Assembly: GCF_963676685.1 (NCBI RefSeq)
Contig: NC_092344.1
Coordinates: forward strand, 32,054,001 to 32,118,000
Direction of reading: 5' to 3'
Length of the DNA: 64,000 nt
Source of the DNA: Mytilus edulis
Taxonomy: Eukaryota
Shown: positions 1,852 to 27,158 of the stretch, in pieces
Numbering within the stretch: the stretch's first letter is position 1
Layout of the letters: each line of letters starts with the position of its first letter
The notes under the pieces: model-generated
The model's database searches: none
What the model saw: the letters and a program-made list of their open reading frames with translations, nothing else
Told to the model about the DNA's origin: nothing
Made by a program: the position numbers and the translations under genes

Positions 1852-1970
1852 GATCTTTTGTAATATTGAGAATTGGCATAATATCAACCTCTTGCAATGA
1901 CCCATCAATTAAAATATGAGTGTTGTGAGCCCATGTCGTGTTTTGCCATCTTTTAACCGTGAACTTGGAC
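1852..1970 (-). CDS. OAS: OAS coding exon 3: (K)SKFTVKRWQNTTWAHNTHILIDGSLQEVDIMPILNITKD
   Basis: Lies inside track ORF 1730..2017. Acceptor cttctag|G completes the AA-G codon from exon 2. EVDIMP supplies the third catalytic Asp (cf. EFDVLP of OAS). Donor gtaggt at 1851, with an alternative gtattt 4 nt further. Confidence 0.85.
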
Positions 1971-2668
1971 CTAGAAGAAGAACGGGAAAACATAGAAAAT
2001 TTACGAAGATCAACCATTTATTGTATAGTATAAAAATATTTGTAACTAAGAATATGTTGAAATTTTCTGTTTGTGATCTGATGGTGTTTTCTTTGGAAGT
2101 TTATTTGAATAAATACATAAATTTGGAGTATGACACAATATGAAGATAATTTGCAATAGTATTAAAATTAATTTTAAAAAATTGTCTTAAGGTCAACAAC
2201 TAATATTGAAACTAAACAAACAGATATCAATCATATGTTTTGTAAAACCTAATTTATTAGGAACTATGACTCTTAAAATACGACATTAGTTACGGAATAA
2301 ACAATTTCAAACATTCATAAAGTAGTACCATACATCACCTCTAGGTTTTGGTGGGGTTGGTGTTGCTAAGTCTGTAGTTTCTGTGTTGTGTATTGTTGAC
2401 GTTTTCAGCATTAGGGTGTTAATTGTATTCATATATAAATAAATTTTGTGTATTTACTGTCTTCTGATTGGTTAAAATTATTAGTTCTATTTTCAATGTT
2501 GTCAATTTTGATGGCGACACGCCCACTCTGACGTTGTGTATTCATACGCCAACATGTGTGTACGTTGTTATTGTCAAGATAAATAATATAAAAAGTTCTT
2601 TGAGCCTTATTTTTGATAGAAATTTATTTATAATGAATGGCAATAATTTATTTTGATTTTATTGAACC

Positions 2669-2751
2669 ATAAAACTAATTTTTGACTCTTCACATTTTAC
2701 ATAATCCGCTTCGCGGATTATTCAATGTAAAGAGTCAAAAATTAGTTTTAT
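2669..2751. repeat. Long imperfect hairpin
   Basis: ataaaactaatttttgactctt...ataatccgc tt(c) gcggattat...aagagtcaaaaattagttttat. Confidence 0.85.
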
Positions 2752-2790
2752 TATTACTTTAATTAAACAGTATAGCTTAATTATGCTCAC

Positions 2791-2930
2791 TTAAGAAGAC
2801 TCTGAATTGCATCTTTCATTCCGGCCATTTTCTGCTTAAGAGCTTCTACAGTGGTGATGTCGGATATTGGAAATATAAGATCCACATCTGAAAGCCCACG
2901 AACTGCAGTTCCTTTCCCGATGGATCCTCC
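2791..2930 (-). CDS. OAS: OAS coding exon 2: GGSIGKGTAVRGLSDVDLIFPISDITTVEALKQKMAGMKDAIQSLL
   Basis: Carries the OAS nucleotidyltransferase signature GGSxGKGTxxRGxSDxD. Acceptor tttaag|GGA, donor AA|gtgagc; 140 nt, phase 0 to 2. Not in the ORF track. Confidence 0.93.
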
Positions 2931-3019
2931 CTTAAAGATTAAAATGAACATTGTGCAAAAAACTGGAAATTACAAAAACGCAAGCTTGATTGATCTACAG
3001 ACATAAAACTGTTTACAAA

Positions 3020-3248
3020 ACTTTTCAACCTTTTGAAATACTCAGGCTTTTCTATCTCAGAATATATTACCTTAGCTTTATTGGCAAAACTTTTCCGAAT
3101 TTTTGTTCCTCAGTGCTCTTCAACTTCATACTTTATTTGGCCTTTTCAACTTTGTTGGATTCGATCGTCACTGATGAGTCTTTTGTAGACGAATCGCGCA
3201 TTTGGAGTAGGTGCACAATTTAATCCTGGTATCTATGATGAGCTTATT
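3020..3248 (+). mobile_element. Dispersed repeat carrying a degenerate type I hammerhead ribozyme motif (3166-3208)
   Basis: cgtca-CTGATGA-gtc ttttgta gac-GAAt-cgcgc-att-tggagt; core partly mutated. A related half copy at 684-743 has an intact GAAA-cgcgc-GTC-tggcg. Confidence 0.65.
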
Positions 3249-4148
3249 TTGTTATAGAACTGTAACACATACTTTATTTAAAAATAAATCTGTTATAAAA
3301 TGCGTTCTTTTCCCAACGAGTACAGCTTGTTAGATCCACATACTGCTTGTTAAAAGCACCGATTTTAGGACTGATCTTGCCGGATACTATTTATTTGAGA
3401 AATGTGAACTAACTTTTTAGTTTTTTCTATAATTCACAAATTGTATTGCAGATGTGATATTCTATGATGAGCTTATTTAGTAATAGAACTGTAACATATA
3501 CTTTATTTGAAAATAAATCTGTTATAAAATACGTTCTTTTCCCAACGAGTACAGCTTGTTAGATCGACATATTGCTTGTTAAAAGCACCGATTTTAGGAC
3601 TGATCTTGCCGGATACTATTTATTTGAGAAATGTGAACTAACTTTTTAGTTTTTTCTATAATTCACAAATTGTATTGCAGATGTGATATTCTATGATGAG
3701 CTTATTTAGTAATAGAACTGTAACATATACTTTATTTAAAAATAAATCTGTTATGAAATGCGTTCTTTTCCCAACGAGTACAGCTTGTTAGATCCACATA
3801 TTGCTTGTTAAAAGCACCGATTTTAGGACTGATCTTGCCGGATACTATTTATTTGAGAAATGAGAACTAACTTTTTAGTTTTTTCTATAATTCACAAATT
3901 GCATTGCAGATGTGATATTCTATGATGAGCTTATTTAGTAATAGAACTGTAACATATACTTTATTTAAAAATAAATCTGTTATGAAATGCGTTCTTTTCC
4001 CAACGAGTACAGCTTGTTAGATCCACATATTGCTTGTTAAAAGCACCGATTGTAGGACTGATCTTGCCGGATACTATTTATTTGAGAAATGAGAACTAAC
4101 TTTTTAGTTTTTTCTATAATTCACAAATTGTATTGCAGATGTGATATT
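3232..4148 (+). repeat. Tandem repeat, 229-bp unit x4, in an OAS intron
   Basis: tctatgatgagcttattt recurs at 3232, 3461, 3690 and 3919. Confidence 0.95.
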
Positions 4149-4149
4149 T

Positions 4150-4383
4150 TAAGCAACACGACGGGTGCCACATATGGAGCAGGGTCTGCTTACCCTTCCG
4201 GAGCACCTGAGATCACCCCTAGTTTTTGGTGGGGTTCGTGTTGTTTATTCTTTAGTTTTTTATGTTGTGTCATGTTTACTATTGTTTTTCTGTTTGTTTT
4301 TTTTCATTTTTAGCCATGGCGTTGTCAGTTTGTTTAGATTTATGAGTTTGACTGTCCCTTTGGTATCTTTCGTCCCTCTTTAG
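4150..4383 (+). repeat. Short interspersed repeat (aacacgacgggtgcc...ccttccggagcacctgag family)
   Basis: Degenerate relatives at about 2330-2440, 14185-14280 and 22715-22810; explains the spurious ORFs 4089 and 4165. Confidence 0.65.
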
Positions 4384-4574
4384 GATAAGTTTTATTTATC
4401 TTCCTTGATTGAAAGTATTGCAATGATTAATTATCATGTAACGACGCATAACATTTCTTGATGAGTTGTTTCAAAAAACAACTGGGACATTAGTATAATT
4501 TAATTAATGAAAACATTCGGTTTACATTTTTTTCTACGAAGATTTCAACAGAAAACTAAATTATTAGACTATAC

Positions 4575-4739
4575 CTTGATGGTACGCATCACTTTATAAT
4601 CAAATTCACTAGACTTCAAGACCTTTGCTACTTCATCAATAGTCTTTCCACATTGTGTAAGATATTCGGCATCCGGATTCACAACGCGATCGATAAAACA
4701 AGAGAGGGATTCATCTGGTTCGATTCCTTTGAAATCCAT
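4575..4739 (-). CDS. OAS: OAS (2'-5' oligoadenylate synthetase-like) coding exon 1: MDFKGIEPDESLSCFIDRVVNPDAEYLTQCGKTIDEVAKVLKSSEFDYKVMRTIK
   Basis: Manual reverse-strand translation. Acceptor tttgcag precedes 4743, ATG is at 4739 and donor AAG|gtatag is at 4575 (phase 0). Matches the OAS N-terminal pattern (LxxFI...P...ID.V...L...V...K|GGS) and splices in frame to the next exon. Confidence 0.9.
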
Positions 4740-4830
4740 TGGTCTGCAAAAAAAGCAAAACTGATTAATATACTGATTTTATCAACATGTCAGCATTGCA
4801 ATTTAAGTATAAATTATGGTTTCAAATTAT

Positions 4831-5368: not shown

Positions 5369-5851
5369 TTTTTACTTATACAGATAACATATACCACATA
5401 AAACTTATACTACTGTAAAAGCAGGCGTCTTTATCAAATCTCATTGATTTTGAAACAAGAGTCAAATTGAAATTTGAAATCTGTATTGCTTATTTAGATT
5501 TGTATTTTGCATATGTTTCCCTAAAATTTACATGTCTTGCAATGAAATTAACATTGAACAGCCGCTTATCAATAAATGTTAATAACTCAAAGAGATCCAA
5601 AAATGCGTAGCTTCATACTTAACCACATTTAAAAATAAACGATAAACTATTTTTTATCAAATGCTTCCATCAAAATACTTCGTGTATTGTTAAGAGGTCA
5701 ACAAAAAATTCTAGAAACTGTTGTATGTCTATTTTTTAACGTATGAGACGATATACTAACAACAGAACAAACAACCCACGCATTAAATTTTAGCAACCCG
5801 TACTCCTGAAAATTAGACAAATTAATTCCTTCAGTTCAAAGATTAATATAG

Positions 5852-6893: not shown

Positions 6894-6909
6894 CCATAAA
6901 CACATTTAA

Positions 6910-8660: not shown

Positions 8661-10425
8661 GTATGTCAGATGTAACACTAGACTTCAATTGTACATTAAA
8701 ACATCGATATCGAGTTACAAATCAGATATTTGATAGAAAATTATAGAGTAATACTTTACATGATCAATCTTATTATCTAAGACTTAAAATTTAAACAATA
8801 ACTTGCCATTCAATTTCCAATCATAACGGGGGAGATGATATAGTATTTCAATAACAATTCATTAAATAAGCTTTGTCATGAATACATTTAGACTAACATC
8901 CTCGTAACTATTTATTTACTCTATGAAGCGCAGCAATTGTTTTTACTAAATTATAAGATTTATGAAAAAATAAAGTAAGTACAATACATGGACCAGAGAC
9001 TTTTTTTTCAATATTTGAAATGAAATGAAAAGCAAATTATTTAATGATAGCTAATTGCTGCTTACCTGGTAAAATTTAGGAAAATGTATGTCACCGTTTC
9101 ATTTACTTCTTGATATTTAAAGTCTAATTTCATTTTGTACCTACCACTACAGTATCAATTTGAGAAGTTCCTTGACATTCAATTAAAAATTCACTAGGTA
9201 TTTTTTTGGGCAACAAAATCATAAATCCAAACTATTATGATTAATTGCTCACTTCCTTTTTTAAAAATAATTGTTAAAGAGTAGCACGTGATACAAATTC
9301 ACTCGACCAGTATTTGATGTATTAGAAAATCACACAACAAAAGAACGGATTGAAGTGCTATAAATTGAAACTGCTTGAAAAACACAGATAGCTCTTGTGA
9401 GAACAAAAATATACAGATATAAGCCATACTGTATTCAAATGATTATATTTGGTGTGATGTATTAATATATAAATAGATAGATGATAGTATTAAATCGAGA
9501 CAATGTATACGTTTAACGGTCAATCAACGCAAAACGCTGCATGTGTTTCCGGATTACGGAATAGCCGTCTTTATAAATGTAAATGAACCAATTTTGTTCG
9601 ATATCAAAGTGTAACATTTTAGGTTTGGCGTACTCTGTTGATGCACCAGGTATAACTTCTTACAGAGATTATACGATTCTCGTATATATAATTTAACTTT
9701 GATTTATACTGTTATTCAACGCCCCGATTCTTTGTTAGTTTTTTTTTATTAGTTATTTTTTTTTTTGCTTTATCAGTTGTGTCATGTTTGATAACCATTT
9801 ATTTCTAGTTGACCATAATGTACCATCAATTCATTTTGATTTGACAATTTGTAGAGCAGGTACTGGTCTTTTAGTATTTTCATAATCCTATCAAAATCAC
9901 TACTTGTGAACTCATTACCGGAACTATTTTGAGACTTTGATAGAAAATATTCACAATTGATAGGAATGATGTTAGTGTCTAGTTGACCAAGCTTCACCAG
10001 CATGTTGTTAAATAATTTGTGCAAACTTATTATGGGACTTTGATCTAAGTTGTGTTTTTGACTATATGCACAATATAACTTCGGGAACACCACTCTTCTA
10101 CGATCATACGGCACACAGTGACATATAAGACAGGATATTTTGTCGTCAAATATGTCGTTTCAGCATTTGTTTTACCTATCTTACGAACACAATAATACTC
10201 TGTGAACACAATTCCTCTGATAATATTTCAGAAAGCCTTCATACTCATAATTATGATAGAATTGCTTGAAATAATGTGTAGTTGTCCTTTTGAACTGATT
10301 TTCTGCAAAAGTTATTTGGATTTCACTGTTTTTGTCACTATTGTTTTATTACATATTTTATAGTATACTGCATCGGATATTTCACTACGGTAGTATCAGT
10401 TTTATTATATTAAATGTTGATTTAA

Positions 10426-10634: not shown

Positions 10635-11069
10635 TTAAATAATTGTTCAGCATTCTTTAATAAAGTTTATACAAAACAAACATACAAATGTATATATGTA
10701 TTTGATACTTTGTATTTGTCTGTTTTATCTGTTTGTATAACAGCAGAATAACTATTAAAAGAAACAAGAAATCACAGTGCTTTAAGCTAATTAGATGTGT
10801 GTGCTTTGCACCATAACATTCTTATTCAAAACTTTTATCGTTACTGATGTGGCCACTCTGATCGACCAAGGCTACTGAAACGGTAGCTGTCGCTATGAAG
10901 TATTGTCACGTATTGTATCTGATGGCAACGTCAGTTATTCAATCTTATAAATCATGGTTATCTGGTGACACTCTTGATAAAGAATATATGGGAAAATATT
11001 AGACAAAGCATTCAACAAACACGCATTGTCATACAGTTGAAGTGCATTCCGTAAAAGTCAATAAAATAA

Positions 11070-11372
11070 CAACAACAATGTGTCCTAAGTACACGGATGC
11101 CCCATCCGCACTTTCATTTTCTATGTTCAGTAGACCGTGAAAATGGGATAAATCTCTAATTTGGCATTAAAATTGAAAAGATTATATCATAGGGAACATG
11201 TTTACTAAGTTTCAAGTTGATTGGACTTCAACTTCATCAAAAACTAACTCGACCAAACACTTTAACCTGAAGCGGGACAGACGGACGGACGAACGAACGA
11301 ACGAACAGACGGACGAACGGACGGACGCACAGACCAGAGAGAATAATGCGCATAAATTGGGCATAATAAAAT
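11070..11372 (+). mobile_element. Non-autonomous Helentron-like (HINE/DINE-1/pearl-type) element
   Basis: Internal (GACG/GAAC)n microsatellite at 11277-11330 and a terminal short hairpin atgcgcataaattgggcat. A partial inverted copy lies at about 63490-63580. Confidence 0.65.
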
Positions 11373-12013
11373 AACTGAAGAATCGCAGATTGTTTACCTG
11401 CAGACATGAGCGCTCAATTGCAACTGTCGTCGTCAGCAAATTTGATCAATTACGTATGTGCCTTCAAGACAGCAAAGAAAATAATGGAACTGAAACAAAC
11501 AGATTTGTAACACTTAAGGTACAGTACCAAAAATAAAAAACGTGTGTATGCATAAATGTTACAAGAAAAGAACAAACAAACCTGTCTATGTGATAAGTGA
11601 ATAAGTTGAAGAAAATAACAGATTAAAGTGACAGGTGAGGAACATTAACTACAGAGGAGACTTTAACAAACGCGACAAGACTGAATGATTATGGAAAAAA
11701 GCTATACTGAATCAGGGTTTTGGCTAAGGAACGCAATACAAGGGCGATTTTTAATGAAATAACATAATAAAGACCATTTACCATCGGAAAATATCCAGGA
11801 ATGTAGGCGTCAAGAATGTTAAAAGAAAATATTTTCAAAGATAGGAAAAATTGCATTTCTTTCAATACAGACACCATGATGATACGTTGTCGTCTGGTAT
11901 ACCAGTTGTCGCATGATCTTCAGATTTGGTAAACAGCTTAGAATATCGTCCTATATCTATAGGATACTTCGATAGATCTAGCTGTTTCATCACGGACGAT
12001 AAAGCTCATCTGC

Positions 12014-12747
12014 ATACAATTACGATACTGTTGTCAAGTCATTAAAGATTGCATATTTTGGCGTTAATATTGAGTCACTGATAAGGTCTTTGCATCGGAA
12101 CTAAACACATTTATTCTAAAATACAGTTGTTGGCATGACACGGGTTATGTTCTTCTCATATATGTTATGATGGTATGATACTAAACCCCTAACGGGAAGG
12201 ATTGTGCCTGATGTTCATATGATGAAATCATAATCTTTCAGTCAGTTTAATTGAAGTCTGGAGCTGGCATGTCAGTTAACAGCTAGTAGTCTGTTGTTAT
12301 TTATGTATTATTGTCATTTTGTTTATTTTCTTTGGTTACATCTTCTGACATCAGACTCGGATTTCTCTTGAACTGAATTTTAATGTGCGTATTGTTATGC
12401 GTTTACTTTACTACATTGGTTAGAGGTATAGGGGGAGGGTTGAGATCTCACAAACATGTTTAACCCCGCCGCATTTTTGCGCCTGTCCCAAGTCAGGAGC
12501 CTCTGGCCTTTGTTAGTCTTGTATTATTTTAATTTTAGTTTCTTGTGTACAATTTGGAAATTAGTATGGCGTTCATTATCACTGGACTAGTATATATTTG
12601 TTTAGGGGCCAGCTGAAGAACGCCTCCGGGTGCGGGAATTTCTCGCTACATTGAAGACCTGTTGGTGACCCTCTGCTGTTGTTGTTTTTTATTTGGTCGG
12701 GTTGTTGTCTCTTTGACACATTCCCCATTTCCATTCTCAATTTTATA
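12014..12747 (+). mobile_element. Second, more 5'-truncated copy of the same Penelope-like element
   Basis: Near-identical reverse complement of 5852-6580. Confidence 0.85.
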
Positions 12748-14594
12748 CGAACAATTCAGCACTAACACATTTAGAACTTTCATTTCTTTGAACAGCACTG
12801 CACTATTTTTTAAATATAACTTCAAAAAATATTAAACTATGTTTACCAATACTCATTTTTCCAGTAATTGAACTTAAAACCATACTCCTTCTGGAGTTAC
12901 GATGAGCTTTGAGTTTTTAATCAAATGATGATCTCCGAGGAAAATTCAAAACGGAAAGTCACTTATCAAATGGAAAAACTAAAAGATAAAACACATCAAA
13001 CAAATGCATAAATACTGTCATATTTCTGACTTGTATTATAGAAAAAAGTAAAATCACAAAAATACTGAACTTAGAGGAAGATCAATTGGGAAAGTCCATA
13101 ATCACATGGCAAAATCAAATAACAAAAAATGAACCTTTGCGGATTGAATAAAATAGCATTTCACAGCAATGACATTGTTTTATTATCAACATTTATTTCT
13201 TTCGTTAAGAGTTCAAACATATATCAGATATGACTAGCATTTTCACCTCCAACACTAGTCAATCAACAACACAAAAATACAAATGGATTCTTGAATGCGA
13301 CAACCAATGCTTAATTGTATATTATCTGTATATTTTTCGTCATGCAGAACGGAGAATGCAATGCATTGTTTTAACTAGTGTCCTTGGCATAGACGCAATC
13401 ATCGTCATCATCATTCGAGATTATGTAATCATCATTCAAGATTATGTACTCGTCATGATATCTTTATTAATGAATTTATTCCATTATTACAGAAGTCTTA
13501 AGTATACACCATAACCACACGAAACTATTTAAGAAACCGTTTTTGTAAAAACAAATATTTTCAGAGACCTCATGTTACTGATACGTACTCTTACCTTTAC
13601 AAACTACAAATAGGATCTCGTGTATTGCTTATTACATACGTTCGGGACCATTTACACATGTTACACGAGTAAATGAATTTGAGTCTTAAACGGTTATATT
13701 GATCTTCACATCATCTTGTAAGCATAAACAATAGATTAATTAGTCATATTTTATCAGTCTTTGGTCAATTTTAAAACTTACATTGTATTTACTGCGGTAA
13801 ATTCAATACTGTTCAGACAACTCGATTGTGGTCAAATCAGGAATGAAATATTTTGGACAAATGTGACAATAACAATTTGACTTTTTAGTGTATAATAGAA
13901 TATATATCTCCCAAGCGATAAATTTGTTTAGATCTAGTGTTTCCTCTGTAGATGACAGCTGCTAACAAGATATCTATTACATCAAGAGTTTCAAAATTTT
14001 GAACTCAAATTATCCCTTTGAACTTTTAACGTACACCATAATGTTTACGTTGACCGTTATGGACTACACATGTCACACATTACCTCGGAAATATTCCATT
14101 TTTCCCAATCATGTCATATTTTGTACGAGTGGGAATTATAAACGGAATATATACTACTCATCATCAAATTTTTAAATAGTTTAAGTAACACGACGGTTAA
14201 CACAAGTCTAGCATGAACTGCGTATCTTCACAAAGCTCCTGAATCGCCCCTGGTTTTCATTTAAATGGTTTGTTGTTGCATTTGTAATGTAGGTGTACTC
14301 ACGGTGCATACAATCCATGAAGACTTTGATTAAGACAAGAGTCAATCCGTAGTTGCATGGAATGTGATCGCGTTGTTTGACCTATAAATATATCTATTCA
14401 CGAACAAAACGACAGTTGTCTCAAGATTTGAACATGCATGAAAAATTTGCCAAATGCCGCTAAAACACTAATCTGTAAAAACGAAAAGGCTATTGAACTC
14501 ACTGTACTGAAATCGGAGCTATGTAAATGTGATTTAAATAAAATCTGTGCAATATCCACATATAGTTAATAAATAAAACATATTATCAAATTTA

Positions 14595-14900
14595 TTCGGT
14601 AATAACTGTCCTTTATTGGATTTAGATATTTCGGTTTTAAACGGGAAACTCCACACTAAAATTTACGACAAAAGAGACGATTTTTCGTTCCCTATTGTTA
14701 ATTTTCCATTTTTAGATGGTGATGTTCCTTTGACACCATCTTACGGTGTTTATATTTCACAACTTGTTTGCTATGCCCGTGTCTGTTGTGACGTTTTTGA
14801 TTTAAACGAACGCAACCTATGTATTACTGGTAAATTGTTAAACCAGTGATATCGTTACCATAAATTACTTAAAACCTTTACTTAATTTTTCCATAGATAA
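14595..14900 (+). pseudogene. Penelope-like reverse transcriptase fragment with stop codons
   Basis: LDLDI...TKIYDKRDDFSFPIVNFPFLDGDVP..PSYGVYISQL..YARVC, then in-frame TGA/TAA. Confidence 0.85.
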
Positions 14901-15999
14901 CCAATTTTTTTTGCTAATTGAAAATTAAGCGGAATAAAAAAATTTAAGACAGCAGAGAAGATAATTCTGTTTTAATTGGTTTACTAACATAGATGTATTA
15001 CATCTATGTTATTACTAACCGACTTAAATAAAAGAGTGAGCTATTAATACTCTGAATGTATAATGTCTCTAGTCTGGTCAAAGGGTCAGAGTGTCCTACT
15101 TAATTAAACTATAAATTGTAGAAATTAGATAACATGTTTCCACGTGCAGAGAAATTTCACTTATGACCAATGCATGATTGGATTTCATCTTTCTTATTGG
15201 TCAATGATCTTGCGGGTCAGCACGAGTTCACGTGTAAGTGCATTATGGTCACTTCCTTTTATCATCAGCATTTGATGTGTTAAATTGTGATTCTTATCAA
15301 ACAATTTGTTCAAAATTATATGTGATTTTGTTTTTTGTTTTATTGATAATTTTGGACTGGAGTGATTTCATTTTAGCTATTTCAGGTATAATCGAACTAT
15401 ACTTTTATTTTTAAGCTATTCTATGTTTACATTTTGAACAAACGTACAGTTAATTTTTTTTAACCATTCTTCCATTCGGATATATAGAACTCACGATTTA
15501 GATTAATGTCAAACATGAGCAGTTGGTCAAATTCATTTCTTTGTCAAAGAGAAAGTGGGTCAAATTGATTTTTATGTGGGTGGCGACACTGTGCGTTTGC
15601 GATCAAAATGTAATTATTTATCATTTATCTGATGATTAACCTGATGCTGTAATTTTACAAGTTACTGAATCCTTCACAGCATCATTATGTTTGCAGAACG
15701 TATATCCGCCTTATGTATTTGATACATGATTCGTTTGCATTTATTAAACTACAATTAAAAATTGGATTATTGCATAACGATAATAATACCATACATGATA
15801 GAATGCAAAGTTATACACTTATAATTTATACGATGTTGATAATGATTCCATACATTTTAAGTACTCTTATATGAAAGAGCAAGACAGTTTAAGTTTTAAT
15901 GCTAAGCTATTGTCATTGTGTTACAAACCCATTTGCCTTACTTGTTTGGGTAAGGTTGACGATATTTCAATTGGTGCAGTGAACTTGACTGCGTGTACG

Positions 16000-16435
16000 G
16001 ATGACCTCTGTGTATGTGCTGTTTCAATTACGTTTTATGCAGAGTTCATTGTTCTATGCTATGTCACGAGGTTGTGGTAGCTTGGTCTATGACCTCTGTG
16101 TATTTACTTTTGCAAATATTGTAGTATGTAGTGGGTATTGTTTTATGCTTCGTCATGAAACTCATGCTGCTTTGGTTTTGCAGAGGTCGTAGTAGATTGG
16201 TCTATGATCTCTGCATTGTTTTATGCTTCGTCATGAAACTCATGCTACTCTTTCAGAGGTCGTAGTAGCTTGTTCTATGACCTCTGTGTATTTGCTTTTG
16301 TAAAGTTAATCTGTAGTGGGTTTTGTTTTATGCTTCGTCATGAAACGCATGTTATATTTTTGCAGAGGTCGTAGTAGCTTGGTCTATGATCTCTGTATTG
16401 TTTTATGCTTCGTCATGAAACTAATGCTAAACTAC
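16000..16435 (+). repeat. Imperfect tandem repeat with alternating long and short units
   Basis: ttttatgcttcgtcatgaaac occurs 4 times; gaggtcgtagtag.ttggtctatga.ctctg recurs. Confidence 0.85.
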
Positions 16436-17495
16436 TTTTAATTATTATTTCGTCATGGTGATTGGTTTGGAATAAATTAATTTTGTAATCAATTCTTTAG
16501 CTAAATACAAAATTGCCAGTATTTTGAGACATGTAGCCAGATTTACATGTTTTTCAGTTTGTAATACATGTTTTTAATGTATTATTTTATTCATCTTTAC
16601 TAGTATAATTCATGTACATGATATAGTTTGGGATGCGAGTAACGTTATTGATAATTTTTATGCCGATACTTATGCACTGTAAGGTCGTTGCTTTTTTCTA
16701 TACACTCGATTTATTAATAAAAATAACATTGGACAAGACATATATATATACTGATGATATTTTAAAGTTCATACTCTTCATTTAATACATGATAAAAACA
16801 TCTTTTCTGTTTAATGGTTGATTATTAAAGAAGCGCAACTATGATAATTTAATTATCGCATATTATTCCTTAACATGTGTTATGTTTGTGGTCCTTATGT
16901 AAGATCAAGTTTGTTTTTTAATAGGAATTTAATTTTCTCCATTATTTATATTCTTATTTTGTTTATTTCATGCTTTAACTATGGACAAAGAGCGCTCAGT
17001 ATGGCAAATATTGATGGGTTGCTGTTTCACTGACATTAATGACACATACCTAATTTCGAGATTAGAATTTTGATCCACAAGTGCGAGTCGTATCAACATG
17101 ACTAACCGAAGCCTAATCTGACTGTTTTACAAATTTACAAAATACGACTTCGATCAGCATTTTGATACACAACTGGACCCAAGTTACAATGAAAGATCAA
17201 AGCACCTATTGTTATTCCATCATCTCTTTAAAGTTGACTATGTCGTTAATTGTCAAGGACTCTCGTAACTAAAATACAGCACTTAGTTTTAGAGGAAGGA
17301 AAATAAATCAAATAAAGACTTCTGCCGCAGTTCTTGGATGGAATGGTCCTAATAATATCCGTGATTCAAGGATTGAAGGCATATGCGTTTATGGATTTTT
17401 ACAGCTTAAAAGAACAAATTTAATATCAGAACTTTATACTTCAGCTGTTGCGGGTCAGTATTACCCGACAAAACATTTATGATCTTTATTGCATA

Positions 17496-19187
17496 CACTA
17501 CAAACCATTAAAAGTCTGAAATGACCTATATCTGTACTCGACTGTACTGATTTTTACTCGACCAGTCTGCATTCTTTTGAGATTTACTTGATAATACTCG
17601 ACTGTAGTCTGAACCATACTTAACAGTTTGAATGTGTACTTGACCAGTACTTAACCATTTTATACCAGTCTGAACCGTACTCGACCTAGTCTGAACCGTA
17701 CTCGACCTATTCTGAACCGTACTCGACCTAGTCTGAACCATACTCGACCTAGTCTGAACCATACTCGACCAAGTCTTAACCAACCTAGACCTATTCTCTA
17801 TACTATTCTCTATATTCTCTATCTATCAACTGAATTTTATCAATTTAGGAATTATTTTAATAAAAAAGAAATTTGAACAAAAACTTGAAATTTAAAATGT
17901 ATTCAATACAGTATTGAAATTAAAATTTCACAATAATCAATCATAATATAACTTCAACTAAATATTAATCAACACTTACATAATAATATATATCAACTTT
18001 TAGAATATAAATAAAACAAGCTGATCAAATAATCTAAAAAAATGAATTGTGATTAATATTTTCAATATTATTCAAAATTTTATGAATATTTCGGAAGTAT
18101 TTTATGGTAACTGGACTATTTTCACTATTAACTTAAGCCTAGTATAGATTTATGGTGTCAGTTGAGTTCAGGTAATAATGCAGTGAATGTTTTTTTTTAT
18201 TAAGATAATTATTATAAAATAGTATATAAAACAACTTAATAAATTATAAAAAGATGAGAGCTTAATTGTTTTGTTTTATTAAACCAAGAATTTAATATAA
18301 TCATGATAATAGAATTTCCATAGCATTCTTGATAACCTTTTTAAAAAAGGAAATGTATTCCAAAGTAACAGTAAAAAATATTTTCAATTAATTTAAGTAT
18401 TTTTTGTCAAATTAACATGGCATACATAAAGCACTTTAATATGTTCTAATTACCTCAGTACAGGTGTGTTTTAAGGTAAAAAGAAAGCCCTACTTTCTTA
18501 GATTCGTGTATTACTTATCTAGTACATACATGTATATTCGAAAGGCCTTGTTATTTAATTTAAACAGGATGTTGCAATTTTGAATCAATGTTATTTAGAA
18601 TTTAATACCTCTGACCAGGTGTGATCTTATGTATGAGTTTGCCCCCAAGCAGAGGTTATACTTTATATTTCACCACTAATTAGAAAAACAATTCTATTTA
18701 TTTATTTAATTTTATCCCTTTTTGATATAAGTTATATATAATATATTTGTTTCTATCCTAAATATAATCAGAGATATATTTCTTTTATAAGGTTAACATT
18801 CTTTATAAATTTTGTTGGCTGTTGTTATATATGTCAGTTAAAAAGAAATTTATTTTAACAGTTAAAAAAGTAGAGGTTTTTTGGTATAGTATGGTTCAGA
18901 CTGGTCGAGTATTGTTCAGACCTTTGGTTAAGTATGGTTTAGGCTGGAAAAATAGGTCGAGTACATGTCGAGAATGGGTTAAGACTGTTTCAGACTAGTC
19001 GAGTAATAGTTCGGACTATTTTCAACGGCAAAGATAAGGGTCAAGTACGATTCAGTACAGTCAAGTATGGTTCAGACTGGGGTCGAGTAATGTCAAGTAA
19101 AAGTCAGACCAATTCAGACTGGTCGAGTAAAAATCAGTACAGTCGAGTACAGATATAGGCCATTTCAAAATTTAATGGTTTGTAGTG
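17496..19187. mobile_element. Non-autonomous CACTA (EnSpm) element, 1692 bp
   Basis: ATA|CACTACAAACCATTAAA ... TTTAATGGTTTGTAGTG|ATA: 3-bp TSD, about 75-bp TIR, and subterminal 21-bp repeats (agtctgaaccgtactcgacct) inverted at the two ends. Confidence 0.9.
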
Positions 19188-19190
19188 ATA

Positions 19191-19590
19191 CAATAACAAC
19201 TGTCTTGTTTTGGGTCAGCATTGCCTGCCAAAACATTTTATGATTTTTTATTTCTAATAATTACAACTGTCTTGTTTTTGGGCCAGCATTGCCTGCCAAA
19301 ACATTTTATGATTTTTATTTCTTATAATTACAACTGTCTTGTTTTGGGTCAGCATTGCCTGCCAAAACATTTTATGATTTTTATTTCTTATAATTACAAC
19401 TGTCTTGTTTTGGGTCAGCATTGCCTGCCAAAACGTTTTATGATCTTTATTTCAAATAATTACACCTGTCCTGTTATGGGTCAGCATTGCCTGCAAAACG
19501 GTTATTATCTTTATTTCACACATTTTCGCTGTATCTTGTTTTGGGTCAGTATTGCCTGCTAAAACGTTTAGGATCTTTATTTAATACGAT
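19191..19590 (+). repeat. Minisatellite, 66-67 bp unit, about 6 copies (first unit begins at ~17445, split by the CACTA element)
   Basis: aactgtcttgttttgggtcagcattgcctgccaaaac recurs at 19198, 19265, 19332, 19398 and beyond; produces the 22-aa repeat ORF 19221. Confidence 0.9.
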
Positions 19591-22500
19591 TGTGTCTTTA
19601 TTGCCGTCATCCTGTCGGTGCTGTCTTTACACATTGTTCAGACTGTCAATGCGATCATTCGATAGGCTACCTTTAAATTGTGTTTTAATTTTATGGCCTG
19701 TTTGTATTCATGCATTGTTCGTAAATCATGATATGGTTTTTAATGTTGCCTATCTAATTCATATTAATTATTCAAATTATATATATAAAAAGACTTGATG
19801 GTTTATTCCATTGTTGTACTAAATGCTATGGTCTTTAGAGGTAAATCCATCACAAACCAAAGTTTTATATTTAACTTGACTGGTTATTATTTACTAAATT
19901 GTTTTTTTCCTTTCTTTTCTTTTGGCATGTTTGGTTTAATGTTTAACGTATGTGTCAAAAGCTATAAATATTTTCTCGGTTAAACTTACATCTTTTAACT
20001 TTCATCGCAATTAAGGTACAGTTTAATTATATGAAACAATATTATATTTTTCATTTTACAACTTTATTTACTACCATACAATATAAACCTTTTAAATGTA
20101 TAACGAAAATTATTTCTATAGTCTCTATCAATTCGGATCACAACAAATACAACTGAGAGTTTCGTTGGTATATATGTTACATTTTGTTTATCGTTCATTT
20201 TTTATATGCATACGGCCGTTTATTTTCTCGTTTAAATTGTTTTACATGGTCATCTTGGGGCCTTTTAAAGCTGACTGTGCGATATGGGCTTTGTTCATTG
20301 TTGAAGGCCGTGCGGAGACCTATAGTTGTTAATTTCTGTGTCATTTGGGTTTCCTGTGGTGAACTGTCTCATTGGCAATCATACCACATCTTCTTTTTTA
20401 TATTTATACAATTTCGATTGAAAAATGTCAAGTGTAGTATGAGAATCATTTGCTCATGATTCCATACAGAAATAGTCAGATACAAAGCTTCGTTTTAGAA
20501 AGGATCCAGGGCTTCGTAAAATGTACTTTAGTTTTGTTTGAATTTTTTAGATTAAATTTTAGGATACAGTTTCGATTAATTAATGTACTAGTTGTTTGTA
20601 CTAAATTATATAGAGGATTTTATTCTTAAATGTCTGGATGTACGAAGAAATATGAATTCTGGAACATACTTAACGACGATTCTATTGTAATTTTATTGCT
20701 GTGATCCTGACCGGAATAAAATTTACACCTTTAATCACTTTTTACCAGTAAGAGAAAATTGAAAAGTAATATCTTGGTATATGTTATTATAAAGTTTTAA
20801 TATTTCTGCTAAATGTGGAAACGTTTTACATAATAAAATGATATTTGTTTGGTGAACATGTATGTGACTGTCATGCTTGTAAATTTTTTCAAGACATCAA
20901 AAATTATTTCAGGATAAAAAAAACTTTATTCAAATAGTTTGGGGTGGGGTCAAAATTGCTGCAACTTTTGTTCAATGGACATCAATTTTATATTTGACTT
21001 TTACAAAACATTTCTCCCCTGTAACTCTTTGTCAAAATTTTACCAAACTTGGCTACAATCATAATTGGGGCATCTTGTTTAAAAAATGTGTCCGATGACC
21101 CCATCTGACAGCCAAGATGGTCGACATGGCTAAACATAGAACATTGGAGTAAAATGCAGTTTTTGGCTTATACATATAAAAGGAAAGCTTTTATGGTTTA
21201 ATAGAATATATATCTGCCAAGCGATATATTTGTTTAGGTCTAATATTTCCTCGGTAGATGGCTGCTGCTTACAAGATATATATTACATTAAGAGTTTCTA
21301 ATAGTTGAGCTGAAATTATCCCTTTGAAGTTTTTACGGACACCATAATATTTATAGAACATATTAGTCACAGATTACCTCGGATATGTTCCATTTTTCAC
21401 AATCATGTCATATTTTTTTAACGATTGGGTGTATTAAACAGAATACTACTCATCACCAATTTTTTTATAAACTTCACTTAAATATTAAGAGCAAATCCGC
21501 CAGAAAACCATGCAATATTCAGAAAATCGACCAAATCGACAATCACAACTTGACAAATTTTTATACATCATCTTAATCCTTGACAAAAAATAAAAGACTT
21601 ATTTTTTCCCAGAATCCTATCTATTTTTAGTAACAGCCTCATTTGCATAATTCTCTAAATTAATAATGAAACCAAGGAAAAATCCAACGTTTTTATACCT
21701 TTTAAGAATTACCTAGCAGCATATTAAATGGAGTAGTTGAGTTTTTAGAGTAATGTAAGCTAGAACCCATCCATTTTACTATGTTATGGTCAATACAAAT
21801 GAAAATTTAAACAATTTGGCACATTGCCAGTAGCACGGACACAAAAACGGGATTTTTCATACATGAATTTACATGGTTTTTATTTCCTTCTAACTTGCAA
21901 GATCCATTCCAGATATGTTTGCAACCTAAAACGGTTTTAATTTTAGGGTATTTTTTTTATATTAAAACAAAAAATTAAGCTTGGCAAATGACTATTACAT
22001 ATTAATTCATGCCTTGGAAGAGTGGTGATTTTAGTCCAGAATTGACACATTTTGATTTTTATATTAATTAAATTCTAAACACAATTAGTAATAAAATGGC
22101 TCATAAAATCATTTAAAATGTAAAATAAATTTGTATAAAGAATGAAATAAGACTTTTTTGTACTGCAAGTGCAAAAATCAATAAATTGTCTGAAACCAGG
22201 GAGTACATCTTTTATGCTCTTCCATTGACTTATCTCCCTTGGGCAACATGTCAGCTCCCAGTGATGGTTTGGCAGACAAATGTTTACAATGAAGTTTGTG
22301 ACTTGAATTATCTAGGAGGAGCATGTTGGCTATTCCATCATTATACAACTACATATAACAAAGTATTTAAGATATCTGAATGCACTAAAGACTAAATAGC
22401 ATAACAACTGCCAAGAAATTTGACAATAATAAAAATAATTTACCAGACAATAATTTAGTGAATAAACATGATAAATATTGATTGGAAAAAACAAGCCAAT

Positions 22501-23317
22501 GAACTGCAAAAGGTGTTCTTAGATTTCAACTAGCAAAACAAAAATATTCTAAATCATTCTTAGTAAAATAAAGTGAGCGAATGGAACCATCTTGAAGACA
22601 TTGCTTATGCTTGCACTAAAATGGAGATTGAGAGTGTCAAAACTGTCTGGCTTTACAAGATCTTACAACAGTCTGGTACACCAAAAATAAATCAAAGACA
22701 CTCTCTCTACCGTTGTAACACAACGGTTAACACACGTTGAGTGGAAACTGCGTATGCTCAAAAAGCACTTGAATTGCCCCTGGTTTTCTTTTAAATGGTT
22801 TGTTGTTTCATTTGTATTTTATTTTCTTAATCTTCAGTTATATCTATTTGTAACAGTTATGCCCTTGAGAACTTTGTATTTCATTTCAAACTTTTATATT
22901 CGTTCAAGTATTAGGGTTTTAAAATATACGTGTGATAATGGTGCATACAATCCATAAAGTCTATGAGTAAGACAAAAGACAGTTATCAACCCATTAGTGT
23001 ATGGGATGTTTTTGCCTTGTTTGACATATCAATATATTTCATCACGAACAGGACGACAGTTGTCACCAGATTTGAACATGCATGAACAATTTGCAAAATG
23101 TCGCTTACAAACACTAATCTTTGAAAAAGATCATTGAACTGTATAAAATTCCTCACTGTATTGAAATCGGAGCTATGTAAATGTATTTTAATAAAACCCG
23201 TACAATTTCCACATATATTTCATAAATCTGAAGTGATTTAGATCGCTAGTAGTGGTAATTGCATTATGTAATTTATTCATTGTCTTTTGATGTCTTATTT
23301 TGATTATTAAACATCAA

Positions 23318-23453
23318 GAAAATTCCCACTGTATTTTTAGATTCTGCGTCAAAGGAACTTTTCAAATCGATGTGTGATTAATGTAATAATAAAACGAAAG
23401 TAGACTATATACTTATTATTGAAAGACACGTACCTATATTCAAACAGGTAAGT
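23318..23453 (+). promoter_or_regulatory. Candidate promoter and non-coding first exon of the HEPN gene, with kappaB-like and IRF-like motifs
   Basis: GAAAATTCCC (23318), GGAACTTTTC (~23354) and AAAACGAAAGT (23391), followed by a consensus donor CAG|GTAAGT at 23447. These are short motifs in AT-rich DNA. Confidence 0.35.
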
Positions 23454-24633
23454 TGCCATTTTCATGTATCATGCTTAAAAACAAAAAGAATTTAAAGTGT
23501 TTTCGCTGCAAGTTATTAAATGATCATGTTTATTTAAAATAATGAATCAAATAAAGCTTCAATTTTGCAGCGCATTTGCAATTAACTGAATCCTGGAAAT
23601 AGTTGATATTAATGTCAGTCTGCCAGATGTCGATATGATGTATTTACGACAGAAATCTCTTTAAAAGACGACAAGATACGAGTTTTTTCTCTTCATATTT
23701 CTAACCTTATGATCAGAAGGTAAGGGATGATAATTCGAGATGATACATCTTAAAAATTCTTTTGTCGGCATACCTTATCGTGGTTGGTACATACAAATGT
23801 GTTTGACTATTAAATGGTTATGGCATATATACATCAATGTCCCCATATATGTCTCCTGTGTTTACCAACATGGACAAAAATGTATCAATGGTTAGTGCCA
23901 AGACTAGTCCAGTGACTACTTTGCCAATAAGTAAAAGGAGTAGGGGCATTAAGTCCTTGTTTTGACTGAGAAAAATAAAACATTTGATAACTATTTCAAA
24001 TTGACACATCATGTTTAGAAATGCATAGGGTCAAGAAATATAAATGAAAAACATAAAGATTTTAATCTGATGACGTCACATGTATTGTTTTCACAAAAAC
24101 GATGAAAAATACATAATTTATGCATTTTTATATCTTTACTTCCGTTGTGGAAACAACATGCACAGGCAAGAAACAAAATGATTTAACAGAAGCTTTATTA
24201 TAACATCATTTAGACGTGCATTTGATAAACCTAGAACGATTGTAGAGAATTTAACAACTCACAACCAATACTAGCAATATATGTATTTATAATCAACGAT
24301 TTTATACAAATATCACTTCCTGTTTTGTTATATATATGTCATTGGTCCTACATCGTACTTCATATTAGATGATGTTGAGTCGAAGAAAATTTTACCAGGG
24401 TAGCTTAGACACAGCGGAGTGCAAGTTCCAATAGTGTTGTAATTGTCCGGATACATTTCTCAATAGTCGTAAGCTGCTTTACTGTCCATCAAACAAAGTA
24501 AAATTGTTGAAACTTTATACAGTTTTGTCCTGTCATTGTTTTTTGGTGCTTTTATTTATTTGTGTAATGTAAAACTGAAGTCAATGTTTTACTTACAGTG
24601 GAGGTCAAGTAAAAGCCGACAAGGAACAGAAGG

Positions 24634-25174
24634 ATGGATAGTGCTAAGAAAATACATGCCACATTAGGGGTTTTTGTTCTGAGACTGTTTCCAACGATGA
24701 TACAAATGATTTTAAAAGATAATATTACACCAGGAAAACTTCACAGAATGTTTATAAACAAAACATTGAATACAGTGCTAACGGATGCCGATATTGATTT
24801 AATGAAAATGCTTCCAAATATGGATAATTTCACGATAGATATTTGCTATAAAATACTTCGGTTTGAAAATTTAATTGACGAACCTAAGTGTAAATGGGGC
24901 AATAGTCCGCATGACACAGACGTTGAAATTTCTGATGATATTCAAAGGATACTTAATTTTTCGAATGAAATTGTAAGTAAATCTTCAGAGGAAATTACAA
25001 AGATTTTTCCTACTACATTTGAGGAAAATGTAAAAAGGATAATAGAAAGAGTGGATGGATACCTAAAAGGTGATAATTGTCAACAATTATATAAGAATCT
25101 ACATATTCAGCACATAGATACATCTGAGCTCCTTGACATCCTAGAGCATTTATTACAGAAACATCCAATAACAG
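24634..25174 (+). CDS. HEPN-domain gene, coding exon 1: degenerate DZIP3-type HEPN domain 1
   Basis: Acceptor ttacag precedes 24599, ATG at 24634, donor G|gtaggg at 25174 (phase 1). Motifs FTIDICYKILR, PKCKWG..P, ISDDIQRI are typical of DZIP3/hRUL138-like HEPN; RxxxxH is replaced by SNEIVS. Confidence 0.85.
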
Positions 25175-26027
25175 GTAGGGTTAGAAGACAAATTAATGTG
25201 TCTACTGTTTTTCTGTTTGTTAGTTTATTTGTGCTTCGTAACGATTAACTGAGATAAGCAGCTTAATTTTATAATGTGCTCTTATGTTCTGATGTACCAT
25301 CATTGTCCCAGGGTAAGGGGCGGTGGACCACTCACAATCATTTTTAACTCTGCCACATTCTGTAAAACACCTGTCCCAAGTAAAGAACCTAAAATTCAAT
25401 AGATGTCTTGAGTTCATGTTTGATTTTCCGAAAATGTTTTTGTAAAAATTATAGGCCGTTACTTTTCTCGTTTGAATTGGTTATATTTTTCTCGTCGGAT
25501 CCGTCTATAGTTGAATATACGGTATAAATTTTCCCGACTGTTTCCCGACTGATGATAGCTTTAAGGTGACGTATAATTGTTTTTCTTGGTCATTTTAATC
25601 TGATTAGTTGTGATCACTGACAAAATGTTTCATTCTCTAACTCAGTATTGTCGTGTCATGTTGTTAGCTATGAAAAAAACTTTAGATAAAGTATATAAAA
25701 AAAATGTTATTAAAATATCAAAACTCTAAGGACAATGCCTACTAGCAGAAAAAACAGTCTTCGGAAACAGAGCATACGTATGCCTATATGTAATAAGTAC
25801 CAATCACATGGTTAACTGTGTGTCACTAAAAGAGACAAGTTATAATTTGCCAGAAAGAGAGAGAAGGTACTTTAGATCGATTTCAAAGGAGCCAATAGAA
25901 AAGAATAAGCATTCAGCAAGTTAAATATATATACATGCAATTGAACATTTTTTGCATATTGTATATCATTGAAGCTTTTTATTCTAACTTGTCTAAATAT
26001 ATGTTGTTTTCTTTTGCTTTTCACTAG

Positions 26028-26606
26028 TGATTCCATCCATTTTGAAAACTGATGGTAAAACCATGATGAGGGAATTGTACTCAAGAATTGCAATTGTGAT
26101 CACTGACATTTTTCCAGATATTCTTAGAGAACTAATTTTGTCAAGAATTACTCCCCAAAACTTGTATAAGAGTTTCGACAACGCCTTTCTCAGTTCATGT
26201 TATTTAAAACAACAAACTGATTTGAAGACATCTAATTTGACGAATTCTTTTTCTTGCTTGGATATACCTCTTATTTATAAGCTTTTAAGATATTTTTCAT
26301 TAATAGCGTCTCCTTCAAAAGGATGGGGAAAGGATCCTCATCCAACTGATCTGCTTATTGCGGATGATGTGGAACGTATCCGAATGTTTCGAAATGAAAT
26401 AGCGCATAGATGTGATGCAAACATTAACAAGAATGATTTTGATGCCTATTTTGTAACATTTAGTGAAATAGGTGAAAGAATTGATAATCATTTGACCGGA
26501 CAAAATAGTTATAAACAAAACGTGATTTACTGCAAGACCTGTGTGATGGATACACAAATGCAAACAAAGTACGAAAATGCTGCAAAAGAATTGGAGAATC
26601 TTAAAC
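26028..26606 (+). CDS. HEPN-domain gene, coding exon 2: DZIP3-type HEPN domain 2 with intact RNEIAH
   Basis: Acceptor cactag, donor C|gtaaga, phase 1-1. Motifs LDIPLIYKLLR, PSKGWGKDP, ADDVERIRMFRNEIAH (RxxxxH at 26390-26407). Confidence 0.9.
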
Positions 26607-27059
26607 GTAAGATATGAGAGAAAGTATTGGAATACAAATCTTAATAAATTTTATCTGATTTCAAAAAATGATAAAATTTACAGAGTGATAAGAAAAGGGT
26701 AATATTATTTTCTTCAGGAAGATGACATGTTTTAGATAAAATGAGAACTTAATCATATTGAAGAACTGAAAAAAAGAAAAACGATACGAACAAAAATACA
26801 TCAGATGGATTTATATACTATCATGTCTGCCAAAAAAAATATAACATGCAGTTTGTATAAGATTTGTTTTTTGTTTTTGTTAAAAAGAATATTTGAATAT
26901 CAAACTTTTACTAGTTACTAGAACGAAGATTCCGATTTGATTTGAAAATGCGAATATTTATAAGGGCTTACACAATTGAATTGTCAAATACAACTATTAC
27001 CTTTTTATATTTTATAATACAACATTAACTTGACCTTAAAATATCTTTCGATCTTTTAG

Positions 27060-27158
27060 TGCATTATGAACGTAAGCCAGTTAAATTCTACTGGGGTGAC
27101 TCTTTTGAACAAAGTCTTATGGATCTTCGAATGATGATACAGAACAAAGAATTAGAAG
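27060..27158 (+). CDS. HEPN-domain gene, exon 3: LHYERKPVKFYWGDSFEQSLMDLRMMIQNKELE
   Basis: Acceptor ttttag, donor GAAG|gtaaga; 99 nt, phase 1-1, open frame continuing exon 2. Confidence 0.82.

What the first reader, a model, noticed from the sequence alone, without database searches (positions are those of the whole stretch)
1852..27158. OAS gene head-to-head with a tandem-HEPN gene: candidate linked sensor-effector antiviral pair
Seen: an OAS with the full catalytic Asp triad is transcribed leftwards and a HEPN-domain gene rightwards. The ATGs are about 20 kb apart, with no convincing intact gene between them. Known: vertebrate OAS signals to RNase L, whose KEN nuclease domain is HEPN-related; bacterial CD-NTase and type III CRISPR systems couple oligonucleotide synthases to nearby nucleases; the effector of invertebrate OAS is unresolved. 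Inference: this HEPN protein, with uncharacterised alpha/beta domains in later exons, may be a co-regulated or 2-5A-responsive RNase. Both families are expanded in bivalves, so chance adjacency is a real alternative.
Basis: partly seen in the sequence, partly recalled or inferred. Interest (0 to 1): 0.8.

Follow-up and report, generated by a model that had tools for sequence, protein, structure and literature searches.

The report
Mussel HEPN nuclease–OAS fusion gene
In a mussel genome, the gene for a predicted RNA-cutting enzyme sits inside a copy of the antiviral sensor gene OAS and is spliced to it in one messenger RNA, which would give a single protein that likely couples RNA sensing to RNA destruction in an animal that appears to lack the usual partner, RNase L.

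Summary
The window lies in a four-gene OAS cluster of Mytilus (B+, A−, B′+, A′−, a tandem duplication). The head-to-head layout with OAS-A is a by-product of that duplication; the first exons are about 14 kb apart. The real link is downstream: the HEPN gene lies inside intron 1 of OAS-B′, behind B′'s own promoter copy, and 13 GT–AG exons translate exactly to a 930-aa RefSeq 'uncharacterized protein': dead HEPN, intact HEPN (RNEIAH), TRADD-N-like domain, OAS with intact Asp triad. The HEPN-exon-8 to OAS-B′ splice is in RNA contigs of two studies (2 of 4 runs laid). No other HEPN–OAS protein turned up among 205 proteins examined. The fusion looks young and variable: a 94% identical M. galloprovincialis protein lacks OAS and lies on another chromosome. 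Nuclease activity, OAS product and coupling are untested; no structure could be run. HEPN–TRADD-N proteins with swappable ends, including a cGAS-like one in oyster, are already described. Verdict: new variant of a known kind, a ready one-protein test of OAS–nuclease coupling in invertebrates, not evidence of an ancient pair.

The parts
1852..1970 (-). OAS-A coding exon 3 (third catalytic Asp, D138 of P0016)
2791..2930 (-). OAS-A coding exon 2 (GGSxGKGT loop, D77 and D79)
4574..4744 (-). OAS-A first main coding exon
   Evidence: piece of a 788-nt contig of RNA run X9 matches these limits with 0 differences
9053..9225 (-). Inferred first exon/promoter module of OAS-A; a second conserved block ends in a donor near 7720
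   Evidence: conserved in A′ with splice donor; same module as the B-type first exons; not tested in RNA
10838..23812 (+). Duplicated upstream region of OAS-B (74-94% identical, collinear, with insertions): the 5′ region of OAS-B′
23294..23448 (+). OAS-B-type promoter and non-coding first exon with donor at 23448 and an ISRE-like motif at about 23392 (motif name recalled); inferred promoter of the fusion gene
   Evidence: 82-83% to OAS-B's proximal copy; 3 copies genome-wide, all in this cluster; absent from C14/C13 HEPN paralogue stretches; splice to 24600 not tested in RNA
24600..25174 (+). Fusion coding exon 1 (ATG 24634): HEPN1, lacks RxxxxH
26028..26606 (+). Fusion coding exon 2: HEPN2 with R302-N-E-I-A-H307
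27060..27158 (+). Fusion coding exon 3
28940..41023 (-). Four tandem 3,025-bp copies of a Mutator-like transposase segment inside intron 3 (passenger)
43598..43894 (+). Fusion coding exon 4: TRADD-N-like alpha/beta domain (residues about 407-505)
   Evidence: Atlas 0.87, 175 shared features, lead level; no Pfam TRADD-N hit
45882..46085 (+). Fusion coding exon 5: second alpha/beta segment, unassigned
46703..46758 (+). Fusion coding exon 6 (linker)
53412..53480 (+). Fusion coding exon 7 (linker)
54567..54596 (+). Fusion coding exon 8 (30 nt, phase-0 donor), a HEPN-family exon; spliced to OAS-B′ in RNA
   Evidence: (loose ends of X1 and X9 equal this exon); homologue in the C14 paralogue
54597..64000 (+). 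Window part of the 11.6-kb intron 8, which leads to OAS-B′. The five OAS-B′ coding exons lie beyond the window's right end (numbering continued: 66170-66340, 67147-67411, 69588-69757, 71000-71184, 71601-71727; G000:C1:32120170-32125727); D697, D699, D759 intact
   Evidence: RNA contigs

Best explanation
This is one chimeric gene: the HEPN exons lie inside the inferred first intron of the duplicated OAS-B′ gene and are spliced in frame to its coding exons, giving a predicted 930-residue protein (inactive HEPN, intact HEPN, likely TRADD-N-like adaptor, OAS) that likely acts as a self-contained, inducible antiviral RNase. Origin (inferred, about 0.85): after a tandem duplication made [B+ A−][B′+ A′−], a HEPN-TRADD-N cassette from a large, domain-shuffling family was inserted into B′ intron 1, took over the OAS promoter and first exon, and its phase-0 exon 8 splices onto B′'s phase-0 first coding exon. 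Function (inferred, about 0.35-0.4): the OAS promoter would switch the gene on during an antiviral response; the OAS domain would bind foreign RNA and gather copies of the protein, so that two HEPN2 domains pair into a composite RNase site, with dead HEPN1 and the TRADD-N-like domain as scaffold or brake. Coupling by proximity is preferred over a diffusible 2-5A signal because no known oligoadenylate-binding module is present. The head-to-head position to OAS-A is incidental.
For: Shown: 13 GT-AG exons translate letter for letter to RefSeq P0052. Contigs of run X1 (0 differences) and PacBio RNA run X9 (3 differences), two studies, carry the end of exon 7 plus exon 8 directly before the B′ acceptor; X1's 659 letters upstream equal exons 4-8 (656) plus the 3 letters shared by exon 3 and intron 3, and X9's 966 would reach into exon 2 (length arithmetic; only 30 letters were displayed). 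B's intron 1 is split in unit 2 between 23812 and 65754; HEPN-paralogue similarity starts at 24523. B′ has no other copy of the promoter module. Catalytic triad and RxxxxH intact; B′ versus B dN/dS 0.20 over 294 codons, HEPN exons versus two C14 paralogues 0.33 and 0.35. The same cassette carries other C-terminal domains in relatives: ankyrin, beta-propeller. Literature: such cassettes with swappable ends, proposed to sense invaders and unleash effectors (PMC8195603); oyster OAS is virus-induced (PMC4955271); oyster lacks RNase L (PMC6307210); one KEN locus in this genome.
Against: No activity, induction or structure was measured. The fusion seems young: the sister protein P0053 of M. galloprovincialis (94% identical) ends before exon 8 and lies on an 81.3-Mb sequence while that assembly's OAS genes lie on a 133.1-Mb one; in another M. 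edulis assembly three OAS proteins have consecutive accession numbers with no HEPN between. So the dN/dS of 0.20 may mostly predate the fusion and does not show selection on it. 1 of 205 proteins examined has both domains: no recurrence. Against pig OAS1 the acceptor-site residues T187 and T190 linked to 2′ specificity (PMC6307210) are K and A, and the basic residues R194 and R198 are V and S (their dsRNA role recalled), so product and dsRNA dependence are open. In X1 the downstream B′ contig has depth 104.8 against 53 for the junction contig, so a second, unseen input may exist. RNase activity of DZIP3-type HEPNs is predicted from the motif only in the passages read.
Confidence: 0.45

Rival explanations
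1. The fusion transcript is real but is a recent, near-neutral product of domain shuffling in a dispensable region; the HEPN and OAS parts work independently or one is a passenger, sharing only a promoter.
For: Single occurrence; sister HEPN gene unfused and elsewhere in M. galloprovincialis; cluster content differs between assemblies; 651 HEPN candidates in this genome; presence-absence variation is widespread in Mytilus (PMC7653742 abstract).
Against: Two versions that differ at 3 of 174 letters both carry the junction (the differences rest on one contig of depth 3.4); all 13 exons are open and both active sites intact; oyster independently has a HEPN...TRADD-N-cGAS protein (PMC8195603).
Confidence: 0.33
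2. The OAS domain makes an oligoadenylate that binds the dead HEPN1 or the alpha/beta domains and switches HEPN2 on: a one-protein analogue of OAS plus RNase L, or of Cas10 plus Csm6.
For: Triad intact; HEPN1 is kept without its catalytic motif in 14 of 14 aligned proteins, as a ligand or RNA-binding unit might be; no RNase L apparent.
Against: No ankyrin, pseudokinase, CARF or SAVED hit; the dead-plus-live HEPN pair is ancestral to a family whose other members have no OAS, so it did not evolve for this ligand unless the whole family reads it in trans.
Confidence: 0.12
3. One reading: OAS-A and the HEPN gene are a conserved, co-regulated head-to-head sensor-effector pair.
For: Orientation and spacing are as described; both first exons descend from one OAS promoter module (64% alike), so co-induction is plausible.
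Against: First exons about 14 kb apart; the interval is B′'s duplicated upstream DNA; A′ has no HEPN neighbour; 9 of 9 OAS hits on C6, C7 and C10 are over 1.5 Mb from any HEPN hit (nearest about 0.3 Mb's list; only 150 candidates were scored in each); not seen in other assemblies' accession order.
Confidence: 0.05
4. The fusion is an annotation or assembly artefact (read-through joined by the gene predictor).
For: 11.6-kb intron; a HEPN-only end is possible by reading through the exon-8 donor to a stop with a polyadenylation hexamer at 54763; a four-fold transposon array in intron 3 could be an assembly expansion.
Against: The exact junction is in contigs of two RNA studies and is the only 5′ neighbour listed for the B′ acceptor in both.
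Confidence: 0.04

Closest known systems
Invertebrate HEPN/TRADD-N polydomain immune proteins (PMC8195603), esp. Crassostrea gigas HEPN-Ig-DED-TRADD-N-cGAS (XP_011454060.1 as cited there)
   Same: N-terminal HEPN, TRADD-N(-like) adaptor and a variable C-terminal domain; a nucleotide-messenger synthase at the C-terminus; lineage-specific shuffling; TRADD-N-OAS fusions are mentioned.
   Different: Here tandem HEPN (dead plus live), no Ig or DED, OAS instead of cGAS; the insertion event, promoter capture and splice junction can be traced. HEPN and OAS in one protein is not stated in the passages and section read.
DZIP3/hRUL138-like HEPN family (PF18738), expanded in bivalves (PMC3710099, PMC9646362)
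   Same: Both domains pass the Pfam cut-off; Rx4H with N after R in HEPN2; copy-number-variable family.
   Different: OAS is not among the fusions listed in the passages read (TPR, RING, ankyrin, CARD, NACHT, Death, LRR).
Vertebrate OAS1 and RNase L
   Same: OAS fold with GGSxGKGT loop and Asp triad (E about 1e-15 to OAS1 structures); a HEPN-superfamily RNase as proposed output.
   Different: One polypeptide; DZIP3-type HEPN, not KEN; no ankyrin or pseudokinase 2-5A sensor; several OAS1 acceptor-site and basic residues not kept.
Type III CRISPR Cas10-Csm6/Csx1, CBASS, and MNT-HEPN toxin-antitoxin pairs (largely recalled)
   Same: Polymerase-beta-type nucleotidyltransferase or oligoadenylate synthase paired with a HEPN RNase.
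   Different: No CARF or SAVED sensor; animal gene made by exon shuffling; no Tyr two residues after the HEPN His, the site recalled as adenylylated in MNT-HEPN pairs.

Membership tests
OAS (2'-5'-oligoadenylate synthetase) domain | OAS1_C domain and NTase lobe | tested here: met
   PF10421 49.3 bits (cut-off 19.9), residues 777-926; OAS1/OAS2 best PDB matches
OAS (2'-5'-oligoadenylate synthetase) domain | GS loop and three catalytic Asp | tested here: met
   D697, D699, D759 in P0052; D77, D79, D138 in OAS-A
OAS (2'-5'-oligoadenylate synthetase) domain | Acceptor-site residues tied to 2′ specificity (pig T187, T190) | tested here: not met
   K and A at these columns
OAS (2'-5'-oligoadenylate synthetase) domain | dsRNA-dependent 2-5A synthesis | not testable with these tools
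   needs an enzyme assay
DZIP3-like HEPN (PF18738) | Profile match above cut-off | tested here: met
   28.2 and 51.8 bits, cut-off 27
DZIP3-like HEPN (PF18738) | Rx4-6H motif | tested here: met
   HEPN2 only (R302-H307); HEPN1 lacks it, 0 of 14
DZIP3-like HEPN (PF18738) | RNase activity, dimeric active site | not testable with these tools
TRADD-N domain | Profile or fold match for residues 405-510 | tested here: inconclusive
   Atlas top three named clusters carry PF20694/PF13820 in 18-58% of members, score 0.83-0.87, under the 0.9 bar; no Pfam hit in P0052 or among the first 25 of 62 families listed for 28 relatives; no model could be folded
RNase L | Ankyrin repeats, pseudokinase and KEN domain | tested here: not met
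   none in P0052; the only KEN matches in G000 are at one locus on C9, not identified further
Head-to-head (bidirectional-promoter) gene pair | Starts within about 1 kb (threshold recalled) and conserved linkage | tested here: not met
   first exons about 14 kb apart (inferred exons); linkage not seen for A′ or in other assemblies
Chimeric gene by intronic insertion | Host intron split around the insert; in-frame splice from insert to host exon | tested here: met
Chimeric gene by intronic insertion | Host promoter exon spliced to the insert in RNA | not tested
   no RNA result for this joint; donor 23448 and acceptor 24599 seen in sequence only

The most novel reading that the evidence does not exclude
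The fusion is a Rosetta-stone protein: mussels, which appear to lack RNase L, use DZIP3-type HEPN RNases as the output of OAS, and this gene has joined sensor and nuclease in one chain whose RNase is switched on by dsRNA-triggered OAS assembly or by its oligoadenylate product. That would name an effector class for invertebrate OAS and show an animal re-inventing the synthase-plus-HEPN logic of prokaryotic defence.
Probability: 0.2. Interest if true: 0.9.

Novelty: new variant of a known kind. Interest (0 to 1): 0.64.

Why it matters
No effector of invertebrate OAS enzymes turned up in the papers read. Here one expressed gene puts an OAS with intact catalytic residues and a HEPN with an intact RNase motif in the same chain, so coupling can be tested with a single construct and two point-mutant controls, and the unfused parents (OAS-B, the M. 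galloprovincialis HEPN protein) are natural controls. It also shows, base by base, how bivalve immune proteins gain new domain combinations: insertion into an intron, promoter capture and phase-matched splicing. Its weight is limited by being young and apparently variable among mussels.

Tried and rejected
First RNA lay over window 1-20000 was swamped by repeats and gave only the OAS-A exon limits. In the second lay 2 of 4 runs did not show the junction: X3 held one B-like contig that starts just after the 15-nt indel, X12 had no cover of the OAS exons; lack of cover is no evidence either way. Search for a junction-spanning protein under 511 aa found none among 5 hits of 32 candidates. Other HEPN-OAS proteins: none among 205 fetched, which include the best 150 of 945 representative hits, so weak-scoring fusions could be missed. 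Pfam did not name the alpha/beta region. The ISRE-like motif occurs 14 times in 264 kb against 3.65 in shuffles, several in repeats, so it is a lead only. The 125-aa frame at 9782-10159 matches low-copy DNA in OAS introns without a shared frame, so I do not count it as a gene. An apparent extra promoter copy was a coordinate-offset misreading, corrected. Contig C1113's OAS hit was left out of the nearest-HEPN count. An MNT-HEPN-type adenylylation brake was considered and set aside: no Tyr at the recalled position. Literature searches for a described HEPN-OAS fusion: and 12 of 13 supplementary files of PMC8195603 (0 hits; another label or the unsearched file could hide one). Earlier scan notes: none.


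Full report
Setting. The window is G000:C1:32054001-32118000. Its proteins match RefSeq Mytilus edulis records letter for letter on a sequence of the same length as C1. I fetched 60 kb left and 140 kb right of it and use window numbering throughout.

Observation. OAS-A is on the minus strand with its Asp triad, the HEPN gene on the plus strand, ATGs 19.9 kb apart, nothing intact between. Only the second HEPN keeps RxxxxH: 16 of 16 aligned proteins against 0 of 14 for the first. An RNA contig fixes the OAS-A exon at 4574-4744 and runs on 135 letters upstream, which points to a further exon.

The cluster. Four OAS genes lie here: B (+, about -18.6 kb), A (−, 4.7 kb), B′ (+, 66.2 kb), A′ (−, 84.4 kb). 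Collinear blocks with offsets near 80-85 kb show a duplicated [B+ A−] unit, and the tree puts B with B′ and A with A′. A and B′ therefore face away from each other by construction. Window 10838-23812 is the duplicated upstream region of B. At 23294-23448 it holds a copy of B's promoter and non-coding first exon, 82-83% identical, with the same donor; a genome search finds 3 copies, all in this cluster; a profile adds the first exons of A and A′ and finds none near the C14 and C13 HEPN paralogues. B's intron 1 breaks off at 23812 and resumes at 65754. Similarity to the C14 HEPN paralogues begins at 24523. So the HEPN exons are an insert in B′ intron 1, on the same strand. This is inference from homology; the donor locus and the mechanism of movement are unknown.

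The fusion. The cluster look-up returned XP_071181964.1/XP_071181971.1 (P0052, 930 aa, 'uncharacterized protein'). Thirteen exons with GT-AG ends, eight in the window and five of OAS-B′, translate to it exactly. Pfam gives two HEPN_DZIP3 stretches and OAS1_C. Laying four runs on B′'s first coding exons, 2 of 4 have a contig whose 5′ loose end is the last two letters of exon 7 plus exon 8: X1 (897 nt, 0 differences; RNA by guess, but spliced at GT..AG) and X9 (PacBio RNA, 1,151 nt, 3 differences), from different studies. The other two runs have no B′-type cover, which says nothing either way. X1's upstream length (659) equals exons 4-8 plus three shared letters; X9's (966) would reach residue about 304. 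Only 30 letters were displayed, so the reach is inferred from length. Exon 8 is a HEPN-family exon, so the junction is a true HEPN-to-OAS splice. The promoter-exon-to-HEPN splice was not tested. One loose thread: X1's downstream B′ contig is twice as deep as the junction contig (104.8 against 53).

Domains. Residues 405-510 look TRADD-N-like: Atlas score 0.87 with 175 shared features, below the 0.9 bar, and no Pfam hit. Relatives carry the same cassette with ankyrin or beta-propeller ends, and more distant HEPNs carry STAND, Roc or GTPase domains. The OAS part is 93.6% identical to OAS-B with a 5-residue deletion at its start; triad intact; against pig OAS1, K203 and K212 are kept but T187, T190, R194 and R198 are not. 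No structure or dimer model could be obtained.

Age and spread. B′ versus B: dS 0.14, dN/dS 0.20; HEPN exons versus C14 paralogues: dS 0.50, dN/dS 0.33-0.35. The HEPN part's sister is P0053 of M. galloprovincialis (94%), which stops after exon 7 and lies on another chromosome-scale sequence than that assembly's OAS genes. Consecutive accession numbers for OAS genes in another M. edulis assembly (CAG2255948-50), in M. galloprovincialis (VDI01832-34) and in M. californianus (XP_052085276 and 279-285) leave no room for an annotated HEPN gene between them; this is indirect and depends on annotation. One of 205 proteins examined has both domains. Nine of nine OAS hits on other chromosomes have no HEPN hit within 1.5 Mb's list; both HEPN lists are capped at 150 of 386 and 651 candidates. 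The fusion is thus probably young and variable, and the measured constraint may predate it.

Mechanism. Shown: anatomy, junction, intact motifs. Inferred: induction through the captured OAS promoter (oyster OAS is virus-induced, PMC4955271; ISRE-like motif weak); RNA binding by the OAS domain; pairing of two HEPN2 domains into an active site (HEPN RNases acting as dimers is recalled). I favour proximity coupling over a 2-5A messenger because no known sensor module is present and the dead-plus-live HEPN pair predates the fusion. The main rival is an uncoupled, near-neutral chimera.

Relation to what is known. PMC8195603 (passages and section 11 read; 12 of 13 supplementary files searched) describes invertebrate HEPN/TRADD-N proteins with variable ends, an oyster HEPN...TRADD-N-cGAS protein and TRADD-N-OAS fusions. 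PMC9646362 and PMC3710099 (passages) describe the bivalve DZIP3-HEPN expansion and predict RNase activity from the motif. PMC6307210 (passages, section 13) reports OAS without RNase L in oyster; G000 shows one KEN locus. PMC10732462, PMC4955271, PMC9334734: passages; PMC7653742: abstract. Searches found no paper on a HEPN-OAS fusion; most subscription papers and bioRxiv supplements were not searchable.

Verdict. Observation partly confirmed, interpretation partly supported with the wrong OAS. The real feature is an expressed HEPN-OAS fusion gene, a new variant of a known shuffling system. Interest 0.64; 0.9 if coupling is shown (probability about 0.2).

Noticed in passing
window 28940-41023 (−), intron 3 of the fusion gene: Four tandem 3,025-bp copies, 99.6-99.9% identical, of a Mutator-like transposase (PF20700); only the last has the full 552-aa frame. 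About ten long matches at 94-99% elsewhere in the genome suggest recent activity. The tandem array could be real or an assembly expansion.
   Followed up: partly
window 41541-42134 (+): 197-aa open frame beside the transposase, facing away from it; probably the element's second gene; no useful Pfam hit.
   Followed up: no
window about 56690-56722 (+): A second, decayed copy of exon 8 without a clear acceptor; the C14 paralogue also has repeated copies.
   Followed up: partly
window 54597-54770 (+): Reading through the exon-8 donor gives 26 more residues, a stop and a polyadenylation hexamer at 54763: a possible HEPN-only isoform.
   Followed up: no
window 14281-14849: B′'s copy of the distal OAS-B promoter breaks off at 14585, where a reverse-transcriptase-like fragment begins (named by eye, no Pfam hit); the distal first exon is lost in this copy. 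A similar fragment lies at 6490-6972 (−).
   Followed up: partly
protein P0210 (M. edulis, 29-kb contig): An otherwise unrelated protein shares the linker of exons 6-8 almost letter for letter, a further sign of exon shuffling.
   Followed up: no
G000:C1:31.92 Mb (L037, L038): A fifth, more distant OAS gene about 115 kb left of OAS-B.
   Followed up: no
window 49567-50429: The N stretch lies in intron 6; the model and X1's contig length need no exon from it.
   Followed up: partly
window 3232-4148: Four copies of a 229-bp tandem repeat in an OAS-A intron.
   Followed up: no
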